Source: an uncultured Muribaculaceae bacterium
Lineage (GTDB): Bacteria; Bacteroidota; Bacteroidia; Bacteroidales; Muribaculaceae
NCBI GenBank assembly: GCA_947625935.1
Contig: CANQQE010000007.1
Location: 13,724 to 77,723 of the forward strand
Length of the DNA: 64,000 bases
Direction: 5' to 3'
The notes beneath the pieces are model-generated. The model searched no databases and was not told the origin of the DNA. It was given only the letters and a program-made list of their open reading frames with translations. A program made the translations under genes and the position numbers. Positions within the stretch are counted from its first letter, which is position 1. Each line of letters begins with the position of its first letter. Shown in pieces: positions 5,265 to 62,401 of this stretch.

Positions 5265-7088
5265 TTATTGGTTCATAGTTTTTGCTATCTGGTTAAACGT
5301 ATTCTGCGTCTCATCGTCAAGCTCTACAAATTTCTCGCCCACAACAACGTATGCCTGTGTTTCCAGCTGTGTCTTATCCAGTACGGCCATCTTTCCGGCA
5401 ATGCTGACGTAGACATCTTTTTGCGTCTTGTGTTCGTTAATGTATCTCGAAAGCGGTACGATCAATTCACGCTCCAGCTTAGATACAACGATACGGGCAC
5501 CACCGGAATCAGAATCCGTATCCAGCTTATCATATATCAGATATAAAAATATATTCTTGTGGACATGCAGGTTCACATTATGCCGCTGCTTCACACGGTC
5601 TTTGAGCGACTGCAGCTTCATATTGACGATGCCCATCATCGTACGCTTTGACAGCGGCTGAAAAGGAACAATGCAGTCGATACGGCCTAACAGCTCAGGC
5701 GGAAACTTATTTCCTGATTGGCTCTTGATCGACTCACGGATCAGCTTATCGTACTTTTCCATCATACGGAAATCCGCTTTATCGGATTCGCCATACGCCG
5801 AAATAACTTTATAGATCTCATTACCGGCATTCGTTGTGATGATGATATAAGCGTTCTTAAATGTCACCTCACGCTCATTCTCATCCAGCAGACGGCCGTC
5901 ATCCAGCACCTGCAACAAAAGCCTTGTCACGGACGGCGCCGCTTTCTCGATCTCATCCAGCAAAATAATGCAATACGGCAGAATAGAGACCTTTCTGGTC
6001 AGCTCAGTCCTAAACCTGGCGATTGAATCATCCTGCGCATACTCTGTCATATCGAAACGGATCAGGTTACGGTCATCATCATATAAGATCTGGGCCAGCT
6101 GCTTTGTCGTCTCTGTTTTACCGGTACCGGTAGATCCTGTGAATAAAAACGAACTCATAGGCCGATTCGGGTTGTTCAGGCCGGCCACGCAGATCTGTAG
6201 TCTCTGCTCGATCATTGACGTGGCTACTTCCTGGGCCAGGACTTTTTTATCCAGCTCTTTTTTAATTGTCGTCGCATCTACTCGGAAGGCCACGTTGATG
6301 CCCTCTGTTTCGTAGATAACGTCTGCCAGGAGCTTAGAATCCAGGCGCCGCCCCGTAAGCCTGTACCAGCCGATCATGGAATCCAGGATTAAAATCGACT
6401 TACGCGGCTGGGAATTAGCCGGGATATACCGGTTCGTATACTCATAAATCGAGTGATAAAGCGACTCTTTATGCGGTTCCACACCGTAACGCTCGCACAT
6501 ATTTTTCAAAATCGAAACCACAACATCTTCACCCGGCTGTACCAGCTTAATACGCTGCAGACGTTCTACCAGAGGCAGGTTCGGCGCAATATACTGCTGA
6601 TACTCAACATGCGTGGTTGCAGCGATAACTCTGATGCCGCGGGTACCGGAATCAGCCAGCAGCGGCTTTAACACTTCGACTGCAGCCGGCGATAACTGCA
6701 CGATCTGATGGAACTCGTCAATGAATAACACGATTTCACGGTTCATGTTCACGCGGTATCGGGAAACCTCATCAAACAAAGTTTTTAATCGATCAGCCAT
6801 CTCGTTTTCATTTTTTAAATTCGCGATCATTTTGGAAAGATCAACTTCCAGATAAGTACGCCCGGTATCTTTGACCATGATGCCCTGCACCAGGGCTGTT
6901 TTACCGGCACCGGCCTCAGCCAGCAGCAGCACATTACAATACTCAGGCTTCAGCATGGCAGCCATGACCTGCTCCATCTCATGTTCCCTGCCGACGAGCT
7001 GTCTGGTCATGGGCTTCAGATGATTCGTATATTTGTTCATATACGGATACGCTTCAATCAGATCTGTATCTTTATCATCGAAAAGCAT
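5265..7088 (-). CDS. ClpA/ClpB-like double-AAA+ ATPase (no N-domain or M-domain)
   Basis: D1 has Walker A LLLAEAGAGKTALV and Walker B VLFIDEFHQ. D2 has Walker A FLFTGSTGTGKTETT, Walker B IILLDEIEKA, DGRLLD..REVTFKNAYIIITTN and PPELLGRIDCIVPF. GGAGG SD. Confidence 0.8.
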   Translation of the reverse strand: MLFDDKDTDLIEAYPYMNKYTNHLKPMTRQLVGREHEMEQVMAAMLKPEYCNVLLLAEAGAGKTALVQGIMVKDTGRTYLEVDLSKMIANLKNENEMADRLKTLFDEVSRYRVNMNREIVLFIDEFHQIVQLSPAAVEVLKPLLADSGTRGIRVIAATTHVEYQQYIAPNLPLVERLQRIKLVQPGEDVVVSILKNMCERYGVEPHKESLYHSIYEYTNRYIPANSQPRKSILILDSMIGWYRLTGRRLDSKLLADVIYETEGINVAFRVDATTIKKELDKKVLAQEVATSMIEQRLQICVAGLNNPNRPMSSFLFTGSTGTGKTETTKQLAQILYDDDRNLIRFDMTEYAQDDSIARFRTELTRKVSILPYCIILLDEIEKAAPSVTRLLLQVLDDGRLLDENEREVTFKNAYIIITTNAGNEIYKVISAYGESDKADFRMMEKYDKLIRESIKSQSGNKFPPELLGRIDCIVPFQPLSKRTMMGIVNMKLQSLKDRVKQRHNVNLHVHKNIFLYLIYDKLDTDSDSGGARIVVSKLERELIVPLSRYINEHKTQKDVYVSIAGKMAVLDKTQLETQAYVVVGEKFVELDDETQNTFNQIAKTMNQ

Positions 7089-53107: not shown

Positions 53108-54391
53108 ATGGACAAATTATTGGAACAAGTTTTCTCAGACCAGAAGATCTGGGAACAGGCGCTGTCCGACGGCATCGAGAAAAAGATTAAAAAAGAAGTC
53201 CTGATCAGCTATTCTGACCCGGCATACCGGGAAGAGATCAAGCAGCAGATCGCGGAACATGCCTATCAGGTCGTCCCGCCACACGAGGCGCAAATCCCGA
53301 AAGACGACGGCACCATGAGGACTGTCTATGCCAACGAAGCAAAAGACCGCGTCCTGATGACCGTGATCAACAATACACTGTTCAAACTCTGTCCGGAAAT
53401 GATACACCCGGCCTGCAAATCCTATCAGACCGGCATCGGCTGCGGCATGGTGGCGCGAAATGTCGTAAAAGATCTCAAACGACTGCAGATCCACGGCGAT
53501 AAACTCGGCTACAAGATCGACCTGTCCAAATATTTTGACAGCGTGCCGATCGAATACATCGAGCAGGCGTTCAAAGATATCGAGGCCAAAGTCGGAAAAT
53601 CAGCCGTCCTGGACCTGTTATGGGACTACTATCACGATAACCGGCTGTACGACCTTGACAAACATATCTTTGAGAAATACACGAGCCTCAGACAAGGCTG
53701 TGCCGTAGCGGCGTTTCTGGCCGACGTGGTATTGTACGATATTGATGCCCAGATAAGTGCAATGCCCGCTGTTTCTTATTATAGATACAGCGACGACATC
53801 TTGATATTAGGAGAAGCAAAAGATGCGGACGAAGCCTTCGGCATTTTAAGCGCCATGCTGGAAGAACGGTCGTTAAAGCTGAACCCCAAAAAAGTCGAGC
53901 AGATCGACGCTGACCATTGGTTCACGTTTTTAGGATTTTCGATCCGGAACGACCAGATCTCGCTCTCCAAAAAACGGACGAAGAACCTTCAAAAAGTAAT
54001 TCAGGAGCTGACTCTTAACGCAAAAACAAAAACCGTAGAATCAGCTGCCAGAAAAGTCTACCGGTATCTGTACGGGCAGTCGAATGTTCCATACAGTTAC
54101 TGCGAAGGCATACTCTCAGTGATCAACAACAAGCACGACATCATGATGATAGATACTTACATCATGGACTGCATCAGGGCCTGCGCGACACAGAAAACAA
54201 AAATCGGCGGGCTCGGCTATAACAAAACAGGAAAAGACGGCGTGATCGTGCGCGGCCTCGGCCGGAACGTGAAACAGAACAAGATCAAACTGCCGGAGAT
54301 CCCGTATACGACCATGTCGTTCATGCAGTCGCTCTTTAATTCCGATAAAGACGCCTATCATACTTACGCGAAATCACTGATATTAACTTAA
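53108..54391 (+). CDS. Reverse transcriptase (stand-alone; retron/DRT/group-II-like palm, no maturase or endonuclease tail)
   Basis: RT motifs IPKDDGTMRTVY, GYKIDLSKYFDSV, LRQGCAVAAFLADVVL, YYRYSDDILILG, LKLNPKKVEQI and FTFLGFSI. AAGGAG SD. Confidence 0.85.
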   Translation: MDKLLEQVFSDQKIWEQALSDGIEKKIKKEVLISYSDPAYREEIKQQIAEHAYQVVPPHEAQIPKDDGTMRTVYANEAKDRVLMTVINNTLFKLCPEMIHPACKSYQTGIGCGMVARNVVKDLKRLQIHGDKLGYKIDLSKYFDSVPIEYIEQAFKDIEAKVGKSAVLDLLWDYYHDNRLYDLDKHIFEKYTSLRQGCAVAAFLADVVLYDIDAQISAMPAVSYYRYSDDILILGEAKDADEAFGILSAMLEERSLKLNPKKVEQIDADHWFTFLGFSIRNDQISLSKKRTKNLQKVIQELTLNAKTKTVESAARKVYRYLYGQSNVPYSYCEGILSVINNKHDIMMIDTYIMDCIRACATQKTKIGGLGYNKTGKDGVIVRGLGRNVKQNKIKLPEIPYTTMSFMQSLFNSDKDAYHTYAKSLILT

Positions 54392-55037: not shown

Positions 55038-55099
55038 CAAAATTTTTTATGATAAGAACTGCGCCGAACACACGGCGAAACGGCAAGCGAGACGGCCGC

Positions 55100-55145
55100 G
55101 CTCAAAGCCCCGCGAGGATGTAAATGGCGCGCGGGGGCTTTGAGC
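55100..55145 (+). other. Strong GC-rich hairpin without a U-tract at the end of the RT operon and start of the ORF-free region
   Basis: GCTCAAAGCCCC (55100-55111) pairs with GGGGCTTTGAGC (55134-55145). After a one-nt bulge (G55133), 55112-55114 pairs with 55130-55132 for 3 more bp. Confidence 0.6.
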
Positions 55146-56786
55146 AGGTACAAAATGCGTAGAATATATAAATCCATGATTTAGCGAGCCTAACGAGGGG
55201 AGTGAGACCACCTCTCCGGCTGGAACCCGCTTTACGCATTTTCGTTACACTCAGAGCAATGACTATCGGAATGTGTCATGGCCGCAAGCTGCCAGAAAAT
55301 TTCAGCCCGGCACAGGGCTGACAGCGGAAATGAGCGCACTCCCCCAGATCCGTAGGACTGGGGGAGTTAAACGAAGAGTAAGAACAGGGTTTTTTTTTAA
55401 AACGGGGTTGACGAGGGGACTAAATGTCACTTGAGAAACCGCATATGAGCGGTCTTCAAGGATCCATGAGAAGACGCGTCGGCGAACCAGCTGGCACCGC
55501 GGTATCAAGGAGGTTCTCCGAGGCAGGGTCTCGAAGATCGTATGATCACGATCATTCCGGATGACCCGTAAGTCCAGAGAGGCTGGAATGCCACGACCGT
55601 GCAGCACAGTGCACTATAAGTGAAAGTCCACCCAGTCGTATGAGCCCGGTGAATTCAGGATCATTATCAAAACTCCCTCTGGGATTACAGCGTAATTAGC
55701 TGCCTGGAAGGCGAGCTGATCATGAGCTTGAACCTTGGACCAGGATGAATTCACTCGCAGGTCACCGTTCAGCTGGAGGAAAGATGATTTGGACGCCGTC
55801 AATCCTTGGCGCCAATGAATCATGATCACGTACGTAAATTCCAGAAGGCCTGAACCAGAGCTCCATGAACCATGGAATTTCGAGTCGGCAAAGCCACCGG
55901 CAATGCGAATCTGATCAAAACGTTCGCGATGAAACAGGCATGCCTGATGCAGGCGACACTGCCGTAGCTGTCGAATGAACTCGGATGGTGATGCTTCCGG
56001 TAGGACCCGTACTCACAATTGTACAACCAGGACAATCCGGATGAATTCCAGGGATGCCGTTTATGATCATGTTTGATATCAAAAGACAAAGCATTCGTAG
56101 AAGCCGTCGGCTGGATCCGCAATCATGAATCATGTGACTTATAGTCGACTAGGCTGCCCGCGATAGCGAACTTCAACGCACCAGTGTCAATCCGCCAGGC
56201 TTAATCATGATCGAAATGATGTCCAGAACAACTGGATAAACACATGCTGCGGGACACAGGTCCGAGCAGGTGATGGATCCTGGCTGGGATACCTGGCTTA
56301 GGCGCCTTTCTTCGAGCAACAAATGCTGCCATATGAAGAGCATCAGTTACGATCGGAATCAGACGACCTGAAGAAATGACTGATCAGTCAGCTGTTTCGG
56401 AACCTGATCCAATCAAATGCCTCAGGTGCGTGCGATCAAAGTTTCGAGACACGTGGAATAACTTCAGAAATGTTGGAATATTTGTGAGGACCATGCAATG
56501 GATCTGGGATTAACGCGCGCCAGCACTGTGAAATATTCCATGTGGCCTGTAACAATTCCAGACCGGTTGTTGAAGACGAGGATCATCCATCCGGATACGA
56601 TCAGTCGCTCCTCCCTGCGGTACCATGGAACTTCGCATCCACGGTCCGTCTCCAAGGACGTCCATGAAAACCGGCTGCCCAATGATGAGTCGAGTTCCGA
56701 ATGCTCAGCCTGACCCGTTTAAACTTTTCGCTATGAAACAACGATTATCTGAATGTGCTGTGTTCAGACCCGCTGTCACTTTTTTT
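55146..56786 (+). ncRNA. Candidate very large structured non-coding RNA, or an extremely long structured leader of the Clp-like/helicase operon
   Basis: The 1.77-kb gap has no ORF over 101 aa and no SD-led ORF. Its base composition is coding-like, unlike the AT-rich spacers elsewhere. It contains several exact helices and repeated sequence modules (see findings). It ends in T7 at 56780-56786. The strand is inferred from flanking gene polarity only. Confidence 0.4.
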
Positions 56787-56806
56787 CAAATAGGAGGTAA
56801 ACAGTT

Positions 56807-58537
56807 ATGCCCTTAGATTTCAGACAAAATCAGAACAACGCTCCGGGAACGATGGGGCCGCCCCCTGGTGCCGTCACGCCCAATCAGGCCATGCAGGCAG
56901 TACAGAACTCTGCGACCGAAGAGCTGATGATCAACTACAACAAGAAATTCGCGAACGGCATGCCCGCCAAATACCGCGACAAAGAGATCTTCACGGTTAT
57001 CTCGCAGCTCATGATGAGCCAGAAATCCTGTTCTTTATTGGTCGGAGCGCCCGGTGTCGGCAAGACCAAGATCGTTGAGGAGATCGCCCGCCTGATCGCG
57101 GCGAAATCGCCTTACACCAATACGCTCAATGAATATACAGTCTACGAACTGCCGCTGACGAACCTGATGTCCGGCACAAGCTACCGGGGCGACTTGGAGC
57201 TGCGCGTGAAGGAGCTGGTCGAGTACTGCGAGAACAACAAAGTGATCCTGTTCATTGACGAGATCCATCAGCTGATCGACGGCCAGGCAAGCATGTCGGG
57301 CATCGCGCAGATGCTGAAGCCGGCTATGGCCAGAGGCTCGATCAAGATCATCGGCGCGACAACCACGCAGGAGTCCAAGAACTTATTGGACGATCCTGCT
57401 TTCAACCGCAGGTTCAACAAAGTCCAGGTATGCGAACTCTCTATTGAACAAACCGTGGACATCATCCAGACCGTGTATATTCCGAAAATGGGAACGTTTT
57501 ACGGCTGCTCCTTTGCAAATAACCTGGCAAAAATCGTCGTTGAGGCTGCTGAGCGGTCCAAAACAATCACCTGCCACCGCCCCGACAACGCGATCACAAT
57601 GCTTGACCAGATCTGCGCAAACACCGTCCTCACCAGGAACTATAACATAGCCACCTGCCAGGATCCGGCCGTCAAGCAGACGCTGCAGGCTACGCCGTGC
57701 GTCGTGAACGCCAACCATGTGGAACTGTTCAACCGTGAAGCCAATTTCACGCTGCCTGACAGCTTTGACAGCTTGAAATCCAAGCTGCTCTATCAGGACA
57801 AAGCGGTCGACGCACTCTATGAGAACTTAAAAGAGTTCGTCCAGATCAACGAACTGTTTCCTGAGAAAAAGCCGCTCGTGCTGAAAATTTTCGGCGCGGA
57901 CAAGACAGGCAAAACGACGCTGGCAAAGCTGGCGGCCGAGATGATCGACGAATCTCCGGTATATCTCGATCTGGCCGATTATTCCGACGCACCCAGCCTG
58001 AACCGTATCATCGGCTCTCCCATGGGCTATGTCGGATCGGATTCCAAGAAAGAAATGCCGTTCGACATTATCGAGTCTTCGCCGAGAAAAGTGATCATCT
58101 TAGACAATCTGGATTGCTGTCACGCCGTCATCCACGACTTCTTTGAGTCCGCGATCGACACGGCGCTGATCAAGTATGCCGACAACCGGATGATCGACAT
58201 CTCGAAGTGCATTATCATCATTACGAGCCATATGGAGAAAAAGACCGCCACGATCGGACTGGTCGTTCCTGAAGCAAAGACCGCGAAGAACGAGATCACT
58301 ATGGAAATACTCACGGACAACGAGCTCGTCGACGGCACAAAGACGATCATGCGCCAGCTTATTGCAGGCATGAAATCGTCCCATACAAAGTATTCCAGCC
58401 TTCCGGATGAATTGGACTTGACTGCGGAAGACGAAAAAGGCATTATAAATGTTGGTGATATGACGCGGACAGCGAAAAATGTGATCCTGCGCTATATCAA
58501 CCAGCCTGTAACAGCGGCCGCGGCAGAGAAAAAATAA
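56807..58537 (+). CDS. ClpA/ClpB-like double-AAA+ ATPase, second paralogue (D2 Walker B degenerate)
   Basis: D1 has LLVGAPGVGKTKIVEEIA, VILFIDEIHQL and IIGATTTQESKNLLDDPAFNRRF. D2 has KIFGADKTGKTTLAKL, but the Walker B position reads VIILDNLD. AGGAGG SD. Confidence 0.8.
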   Translation: MPLDFRQNQNNAPGTMGPPPGAVTPNQAMQAVQNSATEELMINYNKKFANGMPAKYRDKEIFTVISQLMMSQKSCSLLVGAPGVGKTKIVEEIARLIAAKSPYTNTLNEYTVYELPLTNLMSGTSYRGDLELRVKELVEYCENNKVILFIDEIHQLIDGQASMSGIAQMLKPAMARGSIKIIGATTTQESKNLLDDPAFNRRFNKVQVCELSIEQTVDIIQTVYIPKMGTFYGCSFANNLAKIVVEAAERSKTITCHRPDNAITMLDQICANTVLTRNYNIATCQDPAVKQTLQATPCVVNANHVELFNREANFTLPDSFDSLKSKLLYQDKAVDALYENLKEFVQINELFPEKKPLVLKIFGADKTGKTTLAKLAAEMIDESPVYLDLADYSDAPSLNRIIGSPMGYVGSDSKKEMPFDIIESSPRKVIILDNLDCCHAVIHDFFESAIDTALIKYADNRMIDISKCIIIITSHMEKKTATIGLVVPEAKTAKNEITMEILTDNELVDGTKTIMRQLIAGMKSSHTKYSSLPDELDLTAEDEKGIINVGDMTRTAKNVILRYINQPVTAAAAEKK

Positions 58538-58579: not shown

Positions 58580-60217
58580 ATGCCACTTATTTTGGAAGAC
58601 ACCGCTGCCGAAAAACAGCCAAACGGCGGCACAGTTCCTGCAGCGCTCCAGTACAGCCCGAAAGATTACAGTTCGATCTTAACAGGCAACGGAGTCAACC
58701 AGGGTCTTCTGCGCAGCATTGTAACGGCCGGAGGCTCTGCAAATGTTCCCAACCATATCATCCAGACCATTGATGACGAACGGTACAATGCAAAAAACCA
58801 TGCGTATCATGTTCATGACGACGTGCGCTCTTACACCGTGCTGCACCAGGACATCTCGCTCTGCGGCGGACTTAGCTCAAACGCTTCGGCCGTCCCCGCC
58901 CACCTGCTCAGAGACCATTTCATGACACTGGAGGACGCAAACGGCAATACCGTAACATACAGATCAAGGCTGTTCCTGAAAAAGATCTATGTCTATAAGG
59001 CAGTCAACAACTATGTACTGGGAAGCTATATCCTGATCGCCGCAGACGAGGCAAACCCGTTCAACTTTGTGATCGCCTCAGAAGATGCGCTCTTCACAAA
59101 AGGACAGAACGGCCTGATCACCAAGCTCTACAAAGAAGTGGAGGGCCAGGTCATCGCAAAATGCCGGAAGAACGGCTTTACGGTCAAGATCAATGACGCC
59201 GCGATGCTCGCCCAGGACGAAGAAAGCCGCACGATGTACGAGCTTATCATGTCCGAACTGGAAATCATCAAGACGCAGGGCCTGCTCAAGCAGACGCTGC
59301 AGAGTCTTTCCGCGAGCAGCTATGATGCGCTGAGCTACGCCAACGGCATCCTGAATCTGATCAACCTGCCGTTCGCGCTCTATCAGACCGATGTCATTGA
59401 TGTCGTAAACAGCAGATCGGCAGATGAAGCAGTAATGCTCAAGAACGCGAACATGTCGCTCTCTCTTGCTGACACGCTGAGCGCGATGCAAAACCGCAGC
59501 AGCATGGTGATCCCAGAGCTTACCGGCAAACATTACACCACGAACCAGATCCATCTGACGACCGAACAGATCGCTGCCATTGAGGCCGACTCGAAGATCA
59601 CGATCATAGCGGCCGGAGCGGGGACCGGAAAATCATCCAGCATCATCCATAGGCTTCACTTCATGGAGGAGAACGGCTGCAACATGCACCAGACCTATGT
59701 ACTGAGCTTTACAAAAGCAGCCGCGGGACATATCAAGAAGCTGTTCAAGGCGTGCAAATCCTGTACGATTGCAGATTTTACGCACAGCTTTGTGAACGTG
59801 ATATTAGACGACGGCTCCGGCACGCACGTGGACATCATCGCGCACTCTGACTTCGTTCAGAAATTAAGGATCCAGATCGACGACCTGGTGAACGCGAACA
59901 TTTTACAGAAGGCAACAGAAGACGCGCTGCTCAAGTTCCTGCAAGCATGTGCCAACATCGAAACCCAGCAGAACACACTGCTCAACATGCTGGACGCTTC
60001 TTTGAATCCCGAAGCAATGAACATCTTATCGGTGTTAAAGATGATGCGCGTTTCTTCTTTGGAACTGGATCCCATTATTTTCCACACGCAGCTTTCGGTG
60101 CTTACACCAAACATCGAGCACATCGTTATCGACGAAAGCCAGGACTCGAACCGGCTGGAATTCCTGACGATGCTCAAGATGGCAATGCTGCATGATATCA
60201 GTATCTACGTAGTGGGT
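58580..60217 (+). CDS. UvrD/PcrA-like superfamily-1 helicase, exon 1 (N-terminal unknown domain plus motifs Q, I, Ia, II)
   Basis: IIAAGAGTGKSSSI (motif I), VLSFTKAAAGHI (Ia) and HIVIDESQDSN (II). The reading frame runs into intron sequence after ...ISIYVVG and stops at 60224-60226. Confidence 0.8.
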
Positions 60218-61390
60218 AAGGCATAATTGCCCACTTTAAACCCTACTAACTGCGGGAAACCGACATGAAAAAATCATGTAAAACATACCTGCTACCGCGC
60301 TGTTTTAGAAATAGAACAGGCAGCACAACGGATAACGCCGTTGGGATGGTAAAAACGCAGGATCATGGCGGCAATCACGAAAACGCAGCCAGACAGCATA
60401 ACGTAAAGACGATGCTGTAAGGTTCATCGACTATCGAAAGCTATAAATCCATAAGAGTCAAGCGATTGACGGGGTTGAAAATAAGGGTAGGTGAAAACCT
60501 ACCGCGAAGCAAGTAGAGTAGCGCCCGGCGGCATGACCGGGTCAGTCTTCGGCTGAGATTAGGCCGGAATAAGCCTGTTAAAGCGAAATGACGGGCTTGC
60601 ATGTCTTAACGGATTTAATATTATTCGGTAAAATAAGACATACAAGATGATATAGTCAAAAATTTGGAGAACGGAGGGACCTCATGCAGACCTCAACACA
60701 GGTAAACAGAAAACATACAGTGAATGAATCTTATTTTAACAATATCGACACGCAGGAAAAGGCATACTGGCTCGGTTTTATCTGGGCCGACGGCAGCATC
60801 TCAAAAACGAGCAAACGGTCAAGCGGGCCAAACAGACTGCGAGTTACACAAAAAGATGCAGAATCTGACCATCTTAAAAAATTCAAAACCGCGATTGGTG
60901 CTGATAACGAAATTAAATTCGTTGACAAAGGGAACGGCCATATTATTGCGCAGCTTGACATCAACTCCCGCTTATTGTGTGAGTCGCTGCAGAAATTAGG
61001 ATATGGGCCAAAAAATGTCAGAGTTCATATTCCAAAGATCCGAAAAAACCTGCTGCACCACTTCATACGAGGTTATTTTGACGGCGACGGATGTTTATCG
61101 GTATACGAACAAAAAGTCAAAAAGTATATGATAAACAAACAGGAGTGGTCGCTGACAGGAAACAAAATCCTCATGCAGGAAATACAAGATCTGCTGACAG
61201 TTTCGGCACAAGTCACACCGACAGTTGCTTTAAAAGATTACAAAAAATCACCTGCGACCGCCTCGCTCCGCTACGGTAAAAACATCGATATTATACTGCT
61301 GTATGTTTATCTTTACAAAAATGCTGCTGTTTATCTACACACAAAGCACAATAAATTCATAGAATTTTTCTCCAGATCCGCGTCAAAAAG
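60218..61390 (+). mobile_element. Group I intron (1173 nt) interrupting the helicase gene between motifs II and III
   Basis: The 5' exon ends in U (60217). P1 forms between GUGGGU (60212-60217) and GCCCAC (60229-60234), with the U.G wobble at the splice site. The intron ends in G (61390). Joining the exons restores YVVG|DCAQTLYEFRDAD (motif III). The intron carries a LAGLIDADG ORF. Confidence 0.75.
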
Positions 61391-61442
61391 GATTGTGCCC
61401 AGACGCTCTATGAATTCAGGGATGCCGACCCGCGCATCCTGA
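60684..61442 (+). CDS. LAGLIDADG homing endonuclease (double-motif), intron-encoded
   Basis: Motifs YWLGFIWADGSI and IRGYFDGDGCLS. GGAGGG SD. The stop codon lies 52 nt past the predicted 3' splice site. Confidence 0.85.
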   Translation: MQTSTQVNRKHTVNESYFNNIDTQEKAYWLGFIWADGSISKTSKRSSGPNRLRVTQKDAESDHLKKFKTAIGADNEIKFVDKGNGHIIAQLDINSRLLCESLQKLGYGPKNVRVHIPKIRKNLLHHFIRGYFDGDGCLSVYEQKVKKYMINKQEWSLTGNKILMQEIQDLLTVSAQVTPTVALKDYKKSPATASLRYGKNIDIILLYVYLYKNAAVYLHTKHNKFIEFFSRSASKRIVPRRSMNSGMPTRAS

Positions 61443-62401
61443 ACAACTTGACGAAACTGTTCAACACGTTCGACCTTACGATCAACCATCGGTCCACCCA
61501 GATCATTCTGGACGTGGCCAACCTGATCAGCAACACGATGAACATGCACAAAACAACGCTCAGGTCCAACAACCTGACGCAGCCTATCACCAAAGCCGAG
61601 ATCGACAAGACCATTACGATCAACACTTATAATAAAGTGACCGATCCGGATACCCAGCTCATTCTGGACAACTACCTGGAAAAACATCTCGGCAACGCGA
61701 ACGGCGAAACGATCGCTGTCATCGCCCGCTCCGGAAACGATGTGGTGCATCTGTATGAGTATTTGGAAACTAAATACGGCTCCAAATACGAAATCCAGAA
61801 CATCACGTCCCAGCGGCGGAACGACATCACGATCCTGTCTGCCATCGGCAACAACCTGCAGACGCTTGTCAACAACACGGCGATCCAGAGCTGGAATGAT
61901 TTCGAGAGCATGATCACGACCGAAAACCTCAGGCTCAATGCAAACAGCCGCCGCAACCGTACCAACGGCACTATGCCCAGCGTCAATAAAGTAACGATGG
62001 AATGGCTGGCGGAGCAGCAGGCCGACGCGGCCAATATTATCGCGGAATTAAACGATCCGAACCAGCAGGCCGCCCGCGTACGCAAACTCCAGATGTCCCT
62101 GCTCGATACGCAGACCAAGAAGAACAATCTGCTGCAGAGAGTCATGGACGCGAAGAATGCAAAACTCAAAGAGAAAAAGGCAGACATCGTGGTCTGCACC
62201 GTGCATGGCGTCAAAGGCCTGGAATACGATCATGTGGCATGTTTCATCAACACCGAAGCTGAAAAATCTTATTCCGTAACGGATGAGAACAAACGTATCG
62301 CGTACGTAGCGCTCACCAGAGCAAAACAGACGGAATGCGTATTCTGCACCAGGGAAAAGCTCGTAAAGGATTTCGAGGCTTATTACCAGGCGCAGCCGTA
62401 A
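61391..62401 (+). CDS. UvrD/PcrA-like helicase, exon 2 (motifs III-VI)
   Basis: In frame with ORF 61448..62401. DCAQTLYEFRDAD (III), TINHRSTQIILDVAN (IV), VCTVHGVKGLEYDHV (V) and RIAYVALTRAKQ (VI). Terminator lies downstream. Confidence 0.8.
   Translation, partial: DCAQTLYEFRDADPRILNNLTKLFNTFDLTINHRSTQIILDVANLISNTMNMHKTTLRSNNLTQPITKAEIDKTITINTYNKVTDPDTQLILDNYLEKHLGNANGETIAVIARSGNDVVHLYEYLETKYGSKYEIQNITSQRRNDITILSAIGNNLQTLVNNTAIQSWNDFESMITTENLRLNANSRRNRTNGTMPSVNKVTMEWLAEQQADAANIIAELNDPNQQAARVRKLQMSLLDTQTKKNNLLQRVMDAKNAKLKEKKADIVVCTVHGVKGLEYDHVACFINTEAEKSYSVTDENKRIAYVALTRAKQTECVFCTREKLVKDFEAYYQAQP

What the first reader, a model, noticed from the sequence alone, without database searches (positions are those of the whole stretch)
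60218..61390. Group I intron with a homing endonuclease splitting a UvrD-like helicase on a conjugative element
The helicase frame breaks after ...DISIYVVG (60217) and resumes at 61391 with DCAQTLYEFRDAD. That is exactly the conserved motif III expected after motif II (VIDESQD). The boundaries obey group I rules. The 5' exon ends in U, which forms a U.G pair in a P1 helix (GUGGGU 60212-60217 with GCCCAC 60229-60234). The intron ends in G. It carries a double-motif LAGLIDADG ORF. Group I introns of this kind are typical of phage DNA-metabolism genes. On conjugative elements, group II introns are the usual finding, so this points to phage-like ancestry of the plus-strand arm.
Basis: partly seen in the sequence, partly recalled or inferred. 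Interest (0 to 1): 0.6.

Follow-up and report, generated by a model that had tools for sequence, protein, structure and literature searches.

The report
Mobile group I intron in helicase
A 1,173-base group I intron carrying its own homing-endonuclease gene interrupts a DNA-helicase gene on a conjugative element of a gut bacterium; this kind of intron is normally seen in phages and RNA genes, and I found no report of one in a conjugative-element backbone gene.

Summary
The UvrD-like helicase frame stops at 60217 (...IYVVG, then 2 codons and TAA) and resumes at 61391 (DCAQTLYEFRDAD). Twenty-eight uninterrupted homologues read ...VG|DCAQTLYEF across exactly this point.

The 1,173-nt insert is a group I intron.
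- Twelve homologous copies at the same site, five of them lacking the ORF (501-535 nt), support a P1-P10 fold: 96% of cells pair and 59 of 121 pairs show compensatory changes, against 10-13 pairs in slid controls.
- P1 has the U.G wobble at the 5' splice site and the intron ends in G.
- A 9-bp P10 covaries with three different exon-2 sequences.
- The P/Q/R/S core elements are present. P9 encloses an intact double-motif LAGLIDADG gene.

Rfam's group I model does not detect this lineage. It does detect a close relative of the core (L037, 69 bits) and the Twort introns. The host element is conjugative (MobL relaxase, coupling protein, topoisomerase III) with no phage structural genes found.

Intron-less, intron+endonuclease and endonuclease-deleted alleles are interleaved on the helicase tree, as expected for a homing cycle. 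It is a new member of a known kind in an unusual genomic setting.

The parts
58580..60217 (+). Helicase exon 1: N-terminal domain plus SF1 motifs I-II, ending ...DESQD...ISIYVVG
   Evidence: ORF list. Pfam UvrD-helicase and AAA_19 on residues 326-546. Homologues.
60218..61390 (+). Group I intron, 1,173 nt
   Evidence: Boundaries are fixed by intron-less homologues and by 12 homologous introns. The fold is supported by covariation.
60212..60234 (+). P1 hairpin: exon GUGGGU (60212-60217) pairs with GCCCAC (60229-60234), with U60217.G60229 at the 5' splice site. The internal guide sequence is 60220-60234. The in-frame stop TAA (60224-60226) lies in the P1 loop.
   Evidence: P1 is invariant in 12 of 12 copies. 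All intron-bearing alleles use GTG GGT, whereas intron-less alleles vary at these synonymous positions.
60241..60246 (+). P3 5' strand (CCCUAC). It pairs with 60590-60595 (GACGGG) as 3 G-C pairs, 2 mismatches and a closing C-G. This is the weakest helix.
   Evidence: Position assigned by analogy with SP-15, Twort and L037. It is invariant, so there is no covariation.
60250..60388 (+). P4 (60250-60254 / 60384-60388), P5 (60260-62 / 60369-71) and a roughly 105-nt branched P5 extension (P5a-d, 60263-60361). The A-rich J4/5 and J5/4 junctions also lie here.
   Evidence: P5 C-G changes to G-C in two copies. P5b-d are rich in compensatory changes.
60389..60422 (+). P6/P6a hairpin
   Evidence: Six of 11 pairs show compensatory changes.
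60429..60434 (+). P7 5' strand (GACUAU) within the R element AAGGUUCAUCGACUAUCG. It pairs with 60652-60657 (AUAGUC) within the S element CAAGAUGAUAUAGUC.
   Evidence: Matches the Rfam consensus GUUCAaAGACUA / AAGAUAUAGUC shown.
60440..60577 (+). Peripheral domain between P7 and P3': closing helix 60440-44 / 60518-22, P7.1 (60446-60476), P7.2 (60485-60503), and two extra hairpins Ha (60524-60541) and Hb (60543-60577)
   Evidence: Covariation is seen in P7.1, P7.2, Ha and Hb. The conserved linker GAAGCAAGUAGAGUA is shared with the L033, L037 and SP-15 introns.
60596..60646 (+). P8 hairpin, shortened in the ORF-less copies
   Evidence: Six of 7 pairs show compensatory changes.
60665..60671 (+). 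P9 5' strand (UGGAGAA). It pairs with 61368-61374 (UUCUCCA), so the helix encloses the endonuclease ORF. A Shine-Dalgarno-like GGAGGG lies at 60673-60678.
   Evidence: Compensatory variants are GGGAAUA/UAUUCCC (L038) and CGGGAAA/UUUCCCG (L042).
60684..61442 (+). LAGLIDADG homing-endonuclease ORF, 252 aa. Motifs are WLGFIWADG (D36) and RGYFDGDG (D135). The last 18 residues are read from exon 2 in another frame.
   Evidence: Pfam and PHROG hits. Seven intact homologues at 56-71% identity, with both motifs invariant. The AF2 model has the alpha-beta-beta-alpha-beta-beta-alpha x2 pattern, and all top PDB matches are LAGLIDADG enzymes. In 3 of 7 copies the stop lies 2 nt before the 3' splice site.
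61390..61399 (+). Terminal G of the intron (61390) and the exon-2 bases GAUUGUGCC (61391-61399), which form P10 with the guide sequence GGCAUAAUU (60220-60228)
   Evidence: helix 2: 9 pairs, 99% paired, 4 pairs with compensatory changes across three exon-2 variants (GUGCC, GUAGC, GCAGU).
61391..62401 (+). Helicase exon 2: motif III (G)DCAQTLYEFRDA through the UvrD_C domain

Best explanation
Positions 60218-61390 are a mobile group I intron of the phage-type IA-like architecture (P7.1 and P7.2 present). It lacks P2 and has an enlarged P5 domain. It sits between the codons for G and D of helicase motif III in a UvrD-like SF1 helicase gene, on a Gram-positive conjugative element.

Inferred mechanism:
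- After transcription the ribozyme folds. The in-frame TAA two codons into the intron stops ribosomes inside the P1 loop.
- The guide sequence 60220-60234 aligns exon 1 (P1, U.G wobble) and exon 2 (P10).
- Exogenous guanosine attacks after U60217. The freed exon-1 3'-OH then attacks after G61390. This joins GUGGGU|GAUUGU and restores an 882-aa helicase.
- The LAGLIDADG protein encoded in the P9 loop cuts intron-less alleles of the same helicase gene when two related elements share a cell, for example after mating. Repair from the intron-bearing copy then copies the intron in (homing).

Shown here: the exact junction, the conserved and covarying fold, the intact endonuclease, the conjugative context and the patchy distribution. 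Inferred: splicing itself, endonuclease activity and the target site.
For: - Junction. Twenty-eight intron-less homologues read through ...VG|DCAQTLYEF.
- Fold. Twelve introns at this site align throughout. My P1-P10 model, with the P3/P7 pseudoknot, gives 96.1% paired cells and 59 of 121 pairs with compensatory changes, and 0 of 500 shuffles reach this. Slid controls give 33-40% paired and 10-13 pairs. The window's copy forms 120 of 121 pairs.
- Group I hallmarks. There is a U.G at the 5' splice site and a terminal G in 12 of 12 copies. One guide sequence pairs with both exons, and P10 covaries with exon-2 variants. The P, Q, R and S elements match the Rfam consensus shown.
- Homology. An nhmmer profile of the family hits L037 (E 3.5e-24), L033 (7e-16) and the annotated spliced DNA-polymerase intron of Bacillus phage SP-15 (2e-14). 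L037 scores 69.3 bits on RF00028 (cut-off 50). SP-15's intron matches the Twort orf142 introns, which score 64-101 bits.
- Exon constraint. All 12 intron-bearing alleles have GTGGGT|GATTG. Three intron-less alleles differ at synonymous sites.
- Homing cycle. Intron-less alleles, intron+endonuclease copies (7) and endonuclease-deleted copies (5; 501-535 nt) are all found. At least 4-5 gains or losses are needed on the helicase tree, and the window's gene is sister to an intron-less one.
- Endonuclease.
- Context. T4SS coupling protein, MobL relaxase, topoisomerase III, sortase with adhesin, and a ParM-like protein.
Against: - Rfam RF00028 gives no hit. This holds at E<=10 on the intron region of the window, and at E<=1 and E<=10 on copies that lack the ORF.
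- P3 is only 3 G-C pairs plus a closing pair, and it is invariant, so it is not supported by covariation.
- P2 is absent.
- The endonuclease in this copy has lost its stop codon and carries an 18-residue tail read from exon 2, which might impair it.
- The endonuclease structure model is of moderate confidence (pLDDT 65, TM 0.3-0.46 to PDB enzymes).
Confidence: 0.9

Rival explanations
1. It is a splicing-competent but no longer mobile intron. The ribozyme still removes itself, but the endonuclease of this particular copy is inactive, so the intron is inherited only with the element.
For: This copy has lost the stop codon that lies 2 nt before the 3' splice site in L023, L029 and L038, which adds 18 unrelated residues. 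Five of 12 family members have already lost the ORF, so decay is common in this lineage. No PDB enzyme matches by sequence.
Against: The ORF is full length. Both LAGLIDADG motifs and their acidic residues are invariant among seven copies at 56-71% identity, with no frameshifts. Three other copies carry the same tail, which suggests it is tolerated.
Confidence: 0.15
2. It is a dead insertion. The insert no longer splices, and the helicase is a pseudogene or is made as two separate polypeptides.
For: No transcript data are available. Rfam's model does not recognise the RNA. Gene callers annotate two helicase fragments.
Against: The window copy keeps 120 of 121 model pairs and every invariant core position. 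Both exons remain open and conserved. Exon 2 has no start codon at motif III; the first candidate is a TTG 19 codons downstream. Flanking exon codons are held to the P1/P10-compatible form in all 12 carriers.
Confidence: 0.05
3. It is another kind of intervening element: a group II intron, an intein, or a free-standing homing-endonuclease gene cassette without a ribozyme.
For: LAGLIDADG genes also occur in inteins, in a few group II introns and as free-standing genes.
Against: There is no reverse transcriptase in the insert, no GUGYG...AY boundaries, and no Rfam group II hit. The host frame is closed by TAA after 2 codons, and the endonuclease is in a different frame, so it is not an intein. 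Some 466 nt of non-coding, covarying RNA lie upstream of the ORF, and ORF-less copies keep the whole RNA.
Confidence: 0.01

Closest known systems
Group I introns of Bacillus and Staphylococcus phages: SP-15 DNA polymerase intron and the Twort orf142 introns I1-I3 (subgroup IA2, from my own knowledge of the Twort ribozyme literature)
   Same: They share the core blocks (GUUCAnCGACUA; GAAAG; GAAGCAAGUAGAGUA; GAAAU-P3'; GAUAUAGUC). P7.1 and P7.2 lie between P7 and P3'. The insertion follows a U in a conserved motif of a DNA-metabolism gene, and the intron carries an endonuclease gene. The profile of the helicase-intron family hits the SP-15 intron at E 2e-14, and the SP-15 intron matches Twort.
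   Different: This intron has no P2. It has a branched P5 extension of about 105 nt and two additional hairpins before P3'. The ORF lies in P9 rather than P6. The endonuclease is LAGLIDADG, whereas phage introns mostly carry GIY-YIG, HNH or related enzymes (PMC3984707). The host is a conjugative element, not a phage. It is not detected by RF00028, although Twort scores 64-101 bits.
Metagenomic introns L037 (in a UvsX/RecA-like gene) and L033 (in an NrdD-like gene)
   Same: They contain the same 24-nt R-region word and a highly similar P7-P7.1-P7.2-P3'-P8 domain. L037 is a bona fide RF00028 match (69.3 bits).
   Different: They sit in different host genes and insertion sites. L037 has P2 and a short P5. 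L033 carries an HNH-type ORF upstream of the core.
Bacterial chromosomal or prophage group I introns in protein-coding genes: Bacillus recA, nrdE, nrdF and the flagellin gene (PMC3984707, PMC2504315)
   Same: They are bacterial group I introns in conserved protein-coding genes, often with an in-frame stop just inside the intron, and with endonuclease-bearing and endonuclease-deleted forms.
   Different: Those lie in chromosomal housekeeping genes or in prophages. Tourasse and Kolsto (2008) stated that no group I intron was known in a standalone plasmid gene outside a prophage. This one is in a backbone-arm gene of a conjugative element.
Ll.LtrB and other group II introns in conjugative-element genes (PMC7293003, PMC4256276)
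   Same: These are self-splicing introns that interrupt a DNA-processing gene of a conjugative element, so expression of that gene depends on splicing.
   Different: The ribozyme class and mobility mechanism are entirely different: retrohoming by a reverse transcriptase, as opposed to DNA-level homing by a LAGLIDADG nuclease.

Membership tests
Group I intron | The 5' exon ends in U, which forms a U.G wobble with the internal guide sequence in P1 | tested here: met
   U60217.G60229 within a 6-bp P1, plus 2 A-U pairs; present in 12 of 12 copies.
Group I intron | The intron's last nucleotide is G | tested here: met
   G61390. All 12 complete copies end in G directly before GAUUG.
Group I intron | The same guide sequence also pairs with the start of the 3' exon (P10) | tested here: met
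   Nine pairs, 99% paired. Four pairs show compensatory changes that track three exon-2 variants (helix 2).
Group I intron | Conserved core: the P4-P6 stack and the P3-P7-P8 pseudoknotted domain, with P/Q/R/S sequence elements | tested here: met
   P4, P5, P6, P7 and P8 all form. P6 and P8 covary strongly. P7 GACUAU/AUAGUC and the R and S elements match the RF00028 consensus. P3 is weak and invariant (3 G-C pairs plus a closing C-G), so it is assigned by homology only.
Group I intron | Match to the Rfam RF00028 covariance model at or above the gathering score | tested here: not met
   No hit on the window, on three ORF-less copies or on the whole genome. As a control, the same search finds Twort I1-I3, L037 and, more weakly, SP-15. 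The likely causes are the missing P2 and the long insertions in P5 and before P3'.
Group I intron | Guanosine-initiated self-splicing, with ligated exons present in RNA | not testable with these tools
Subgroup IA2 (phage type) | P7.1 and P7.2 lie between the P7 5' strand and P3' | tested here: met
   Two covarying hairpins at 60446-60476 and 60485-60503.
Subgroup IA2 (phage type) | A P2 hairpin lies between P1 and P3 | tested here: not met
   Only UUUAAA (60235-60240) separates P1 from P3 in all helicase-site copies. The relative L037 does have P2. I therefore call it IA-like and do not assign it to IA2.
Monomeric LAGLIDADG homing endonuclease | Two LAGLIDADG motifs, each with a conserved acidic residue, in one chain | tested here: met
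   WLGFIWADG (D36) and RGYFDGDG (D135), invariant in 7 copies. Pfam LAGLIDADG_3 and LAGLIDADG_1 score above their cut-offs.
Monomeric LAGLIDADG homing endonuclease | Tandem alpha-beta-beta-alpha-beta-beta-alpha fold | tested here: met
   The AF2 secondary structure shows the pattern twice. The 50 best PDB matches are all LAGLIDADG enzymes or maturases at probability 1.00. Model confidence is moderate (pLDDT 65, TM 0.3-0.46).
Monomeric LAGLIDADG homing endonuclease | Site-specific cleavage of the intron-less allele | not testable with these tools
   Candidate targets are the intron-less junctions listed.
Group II intron | GUGYG...AY boundaries, domain V, and an intron-encoded reverse transcriptase | tested here: not met
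   The intron starts AAGGC and ends AAAAG. There is no Rfam group II hit. The ORF is LAGLIDADG, not a reverse transcriptase.
Intein | The insert is translated in frame with the host protein | tested here: not met
   A TAA stop lies 2 codons after the junction, and the endonuclease is in another frame.

The most novel reading that the evidence does not exclude
This may be the first documented lineage of group I introns that lives in backbone genes of conjugative elements rather than in phages, organelles or RNA genes. In that reading, the transient co-residence of related elements created by mating plays the role that co-infection plays for phage introns, and the endonuclease may also work as a weapon between competing elements by converting a rival's helicase allele. 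The lineage is invisible to the standard Rfam model, so similar introns may be systematically missed and annotated as split genes in gut metagenomes.
Probability: 0.4. Interest if true: 0.55.

Novelty: new member of a known kind. Interest (0 to 1): 0.45.

Why it matters
Group I introns in bacterial protein-coding genes are uncommon. They have been tied to phages and prophages, and a 2008 survey stated that none was known in a standalone plasmid gene (PMC2504315). My literature searches found no later report of one.

This family extends the habitat of homing group I introns to conjugative elements of gut Clostridia. It offers a natural series in closely related sequences: intron-less alleles, intron with endonuclease, and endonuclease-deleted introns. 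That series suits study of the homing cycle.

It also exposes a blind spot of RF00028. The practical consequence is that the helicase is annotated as two fragment genes plus a hypothetical protein in every carrier.

Tried and rejected
- Rfam at gathering and at permissive thresholds gave no hit, on the window, on ORF-less loci and on the whole genome. I kept this as a negative membership row but not as evidence against the fold, because the control hits show the model works on simpler relatives.
- blastn of the locus against INPHARED phages and PLSDB plasmids found nothing. tblastn against plasmids found only a 27%-identical Streptomyces helicase.
- IMG/VR holds only helicases of 22-26% identity over the full length (up to 44% over short C-terminal stretches).
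- A single-protein scan of genome contigs found nothing. The alignment-based scan found two Oscillospiraceae MAGs.
- A PDB sequence search with the endonuclease gave no hit.
- RNAalifold proposed pairing of GGCGGCAAUC (60367-60376) with exon 2, and of ACGC with the 3' tail. I rejected both: they break in L036 and L038, whereas the P10 guide-sequence pairing compensates.
- RNAalifold also paired 60575-60577 with GGG 60593-60595. I replaced this with the covarying Hb stem plus P3.
- I considered P3' = GUAGAG (60518 region) and rejected it, because that block is conserved in L033, L037 and SP-15, whose P3 5' strands differ.
- I did not build a covariance model of my own. The full alignment exceeds the 400-column limit, and the nhmmer and Rfam chain already linked the family to verified introns.

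Full report
OBSERVATION

The helicase ORF 58580-60226 ends ...DISIYVVG-K-A-stop. The codon GGT ends at 60217 and the TAA lies at 60224-60226. Position 61390 is G. GAT TGT GCC CAG... (DCAQTLYEFRDAD) starts at 61391, in the frame of the downstream UvrD_C-bearing ORF. Pfam puts UvrD-helicase profile positions 1-246 of 271 on the upstream piece and UvrD_C on the downstream piece.

A search with the conceptually spliced 882-aa protein returned two groups. Twenty-eight uninterrupted homologues (49-81% identity) read ...ISIYIVGDCAQTLYEFRDADPRILNN... Seventeen clusters (the window's own included) stop right after ...VG.

RELATED COPIES

I recovered DNA for 12 complete inserts at this same codon boundary, from MAGs and metagenome contigs.
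- Ten lie in helicases about 62-81% identical to the window's.
- Two (L036, L038) lie in helicases only about 27% identical.
- Seven carry the LAGLIDADG ORF (1,157-1,189 nt).
- Five are ORF-less (501-535 nt) and keep only the ORF's first and last few codons.

THE RNA FOLD

The non-coding 466 nt upstream of the ORF and the last ~45 nt align throughout. RNAalifold found most helices. I added the elements it cannot represent (the P3/P7 pseudoknot and P10) and corrected three pairings using covariation and comparison with simpler relatives.

Counting pairs on the alignment gave:
- 96.1% of cells paired, against 85.2% for shuffled columns (0 of 500 shuffles reach the observed value) and 33-40% for slid partners;
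- 59 of 121 pairs with compensatory changes, against 10-13 for slid partners.

The window's copy forms 120 of 121 pairs.

The group I features are as follows.
- P1 (60212-17 / 60229-34) has U.G at the splice site.
- The intron ends in G.
- P10 is 9 bp, between the guide sequence GGCAUAAUU and exon 2 GAUUGUGCC. It changes in step with exon-2 variants: GUAGC with GCUAC in L036, GCAGU with ACUGU in L038, and GCGCC with GGCGU in L042.
- P4 is CUGCG/CGCAG, flanked by A-rich junctions.
- P6 and P8 are rich in covariation.
- P7 is GACUAU/AUAGUC, inside the R-like (AAGGUUCAUCGACUA) and S-like (AAGAUGAUAUAGUC) elements.
- P7.1 and P7.2 are present.
- P9 (UGGAGAA/UUCUCCA) encloses the ORF, with compensatory variants in L038 and L042.

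Weak points:
- P3 is only CCC/GGG plus a closing C-G, and it is invariant.
- There is no P2.
- The P5 domain is unusually large, and two extra hairpins precede P3'.

LINK TO KNOWN GROUP I INTRONS

Rfam RF00028 does not detect any copy. This holds without the ORF and at E<=10, and it detects nothing in the whole genome either.

A 24-nt invariant word from the R region found two other metagenomic introns:
- L037, in a UvsX/RecA-like gene;
- L033, in an NrdD-like gene, with an HNH-type ORF.

An nhmmer profile of the helicase-intron family hits L037 (E 3.5e-24), L033 (7e-16) and the intron of the Bacillus phage SP-15 DNA polymerase gene (2e-14). The SP-15 gene is annotated as a joined CDS with an 'intron endonuclease'.

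In the same Rfam search, L037 scores 69.3 bits (cut-off 50), SP-15 scores 36.6 bits, and the three Twort orf142 introns score 64-101 bits. The Twort record notes 'contains group 1 introns'. SP-15's intron also matches Twort directly.

The window's intron therefore belongs, by sequence homology of its catalytic core, with verified phage group I introns. The Rfam miss is a sensitivity problem.

EXON CONSTRAINT AND MOBILITY

All 12 carriers have GTGGGT|GATTG at the junction. The three distinct intron-less alleles I could read have GTCGGC|GACTGT, GTAGGT|GATTGT and GTTGGT|GACTGT. This is expected if P1 and P10 pairing, or co-conversion, fixes the synonymous positions in carriers.

A maximum-likelihood tree of exon-1 proteins needs at least 4-5 gains or losses of the intron. 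It places the window's gene (P0029) as sister to an intron-less gene (P0001; support 100/98), away from the main intron-bearing clade.

Among 301 genomes of the host's family, only the window's own genome has the intron. Together with the ORF-less derivatives, this is the pattern of a homing-endonuclease life cycle.

THE ENDONUCLEASE

The ORF is 252 aa, preceded by GGAGGG. Both LAGLIDADG motifs and their aspartates are invariant among seven intact copies at 56-71% identity. Pfam and PHROG assignments agree.

An AF2 model (pLDDT 65) shows the alpha-beta-beta-alpha-beta-beta-alpha pattern twice. All of its best PDB matches are monomeric LAGLIDADG enzymes or maturases.

In L023, L029 and L038 the ORF stops 2 nt before the 3' splice site (UGA, UAA or UAG). 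In the window, L002, L003 and L027 that codon is AAA/AAC. The ORF then runs 52 nt into exon 2 and adds 18 residues that are simply motif III read out of frame. The overlap is thus a recent loss of the stop codon, not a designed feature. The last ~11 conserved residues (KFxEFFSRxAS) are co-encoded with the P9 3' strand.

CONTEXT

The minus-strand arm encodes the following:
- a T4SS coupling protein;
- a MobL relaxase;
- a ClpB-like ATPase;
- a large cell-wall hydrolase;
- topoisomerase III;
- a sortase with a Thr-Gln ester-bond adhesin;
- a ParM-like protein.

PHROG scans of ten large proteins gave no virion or packaging hits. The helicase is flanked in relatives by the same AAA ATPase, LPD24, DUF3799 and D5-type primase genes.

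Nothing shows that the plus-strand arm is of phage origin; only the intron is phage-like.

LITERATURE

[quoted passage not shown] A survey of the Bacillus cereus group states that no group I intron had been found in a standalone plasmid gene outside a prophage (PMC2504315). Three full-text searches found no later report of one in a conjugative-element gene. The library is incomplete, so this is absence of evidence.

VERDICT

This is a genuine group I intron with a LAGLIDADG homing endonuclease (confidence 0.9). It is structurally IA-like with lineage-specific peculiarities, and it sits in an unusual genomic habitat.

Noticed in passing
window 60433 and 60649: A purine in the P7 5' strand (GACU[A/G]U) and a purine in J8/7 (GAUG[A/G]UAUAGUC) change together, A with A or G with G, in 12 of 12 copies. 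The A/A state occurs in copies that are not each other's closest relatives (win, L023, L036, L038). The two positions are not Watson-Crick partners, so this may be a base triple on the P7 R-U pair.
   Followed up: partly
L037 (whole locus, minus strand of the stored record): A metagenomic group I intron in a UvsX/RecA-like recombinase gene. It scores 69.3 bits on RF00028, and its exons resemble the Bacillus phage AR9/PBS1 UvsX-like gene. It shares the window intron's P7-P8 domain almost word for word.
   Followed up: partly
L033:900-1500: An intron core of the same family lies in an anaerobic ribonucleotide reductase (NrdD-like) gene. An HNH-type endonuclease ORF lies upstream of the R element, so the ORF position differs from the helicase intron.
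   Followed up: partly
L036 and L038 (also L035): The same intron sits at the same motif III codon boundary in helicases only about 27% identical to the window's. In L036 the ORF has been lost. The homing site is therefore conserved across a deep split of this helicase family.
   Followed up: partly
window 53108-54391 and 55038-56806: A reverse-transcriptase gene (Pfam RVT_1, PHROG reverse transcriptase) is followed by a long gene-free stretch just upstream of the AAA ATPase-helicase pair. Earlier notes of this scan read it as a UG27-type system. It is not part of the intron.
   Followed up: no
window 56807-58537 and 5265-7088: Two ClpB/ClpA-like double AAA+ ATPase genes lie on the element, one on each arm. 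The plus-strand one is always immediately upstream of the helicase in relatives.
   Followed up: no
L042 intron, P5d region: A run of 10 N interrupts the stored sequence inside the intron. This is a scaffold gap or masking in the source record, not biology.
   Followed up: no
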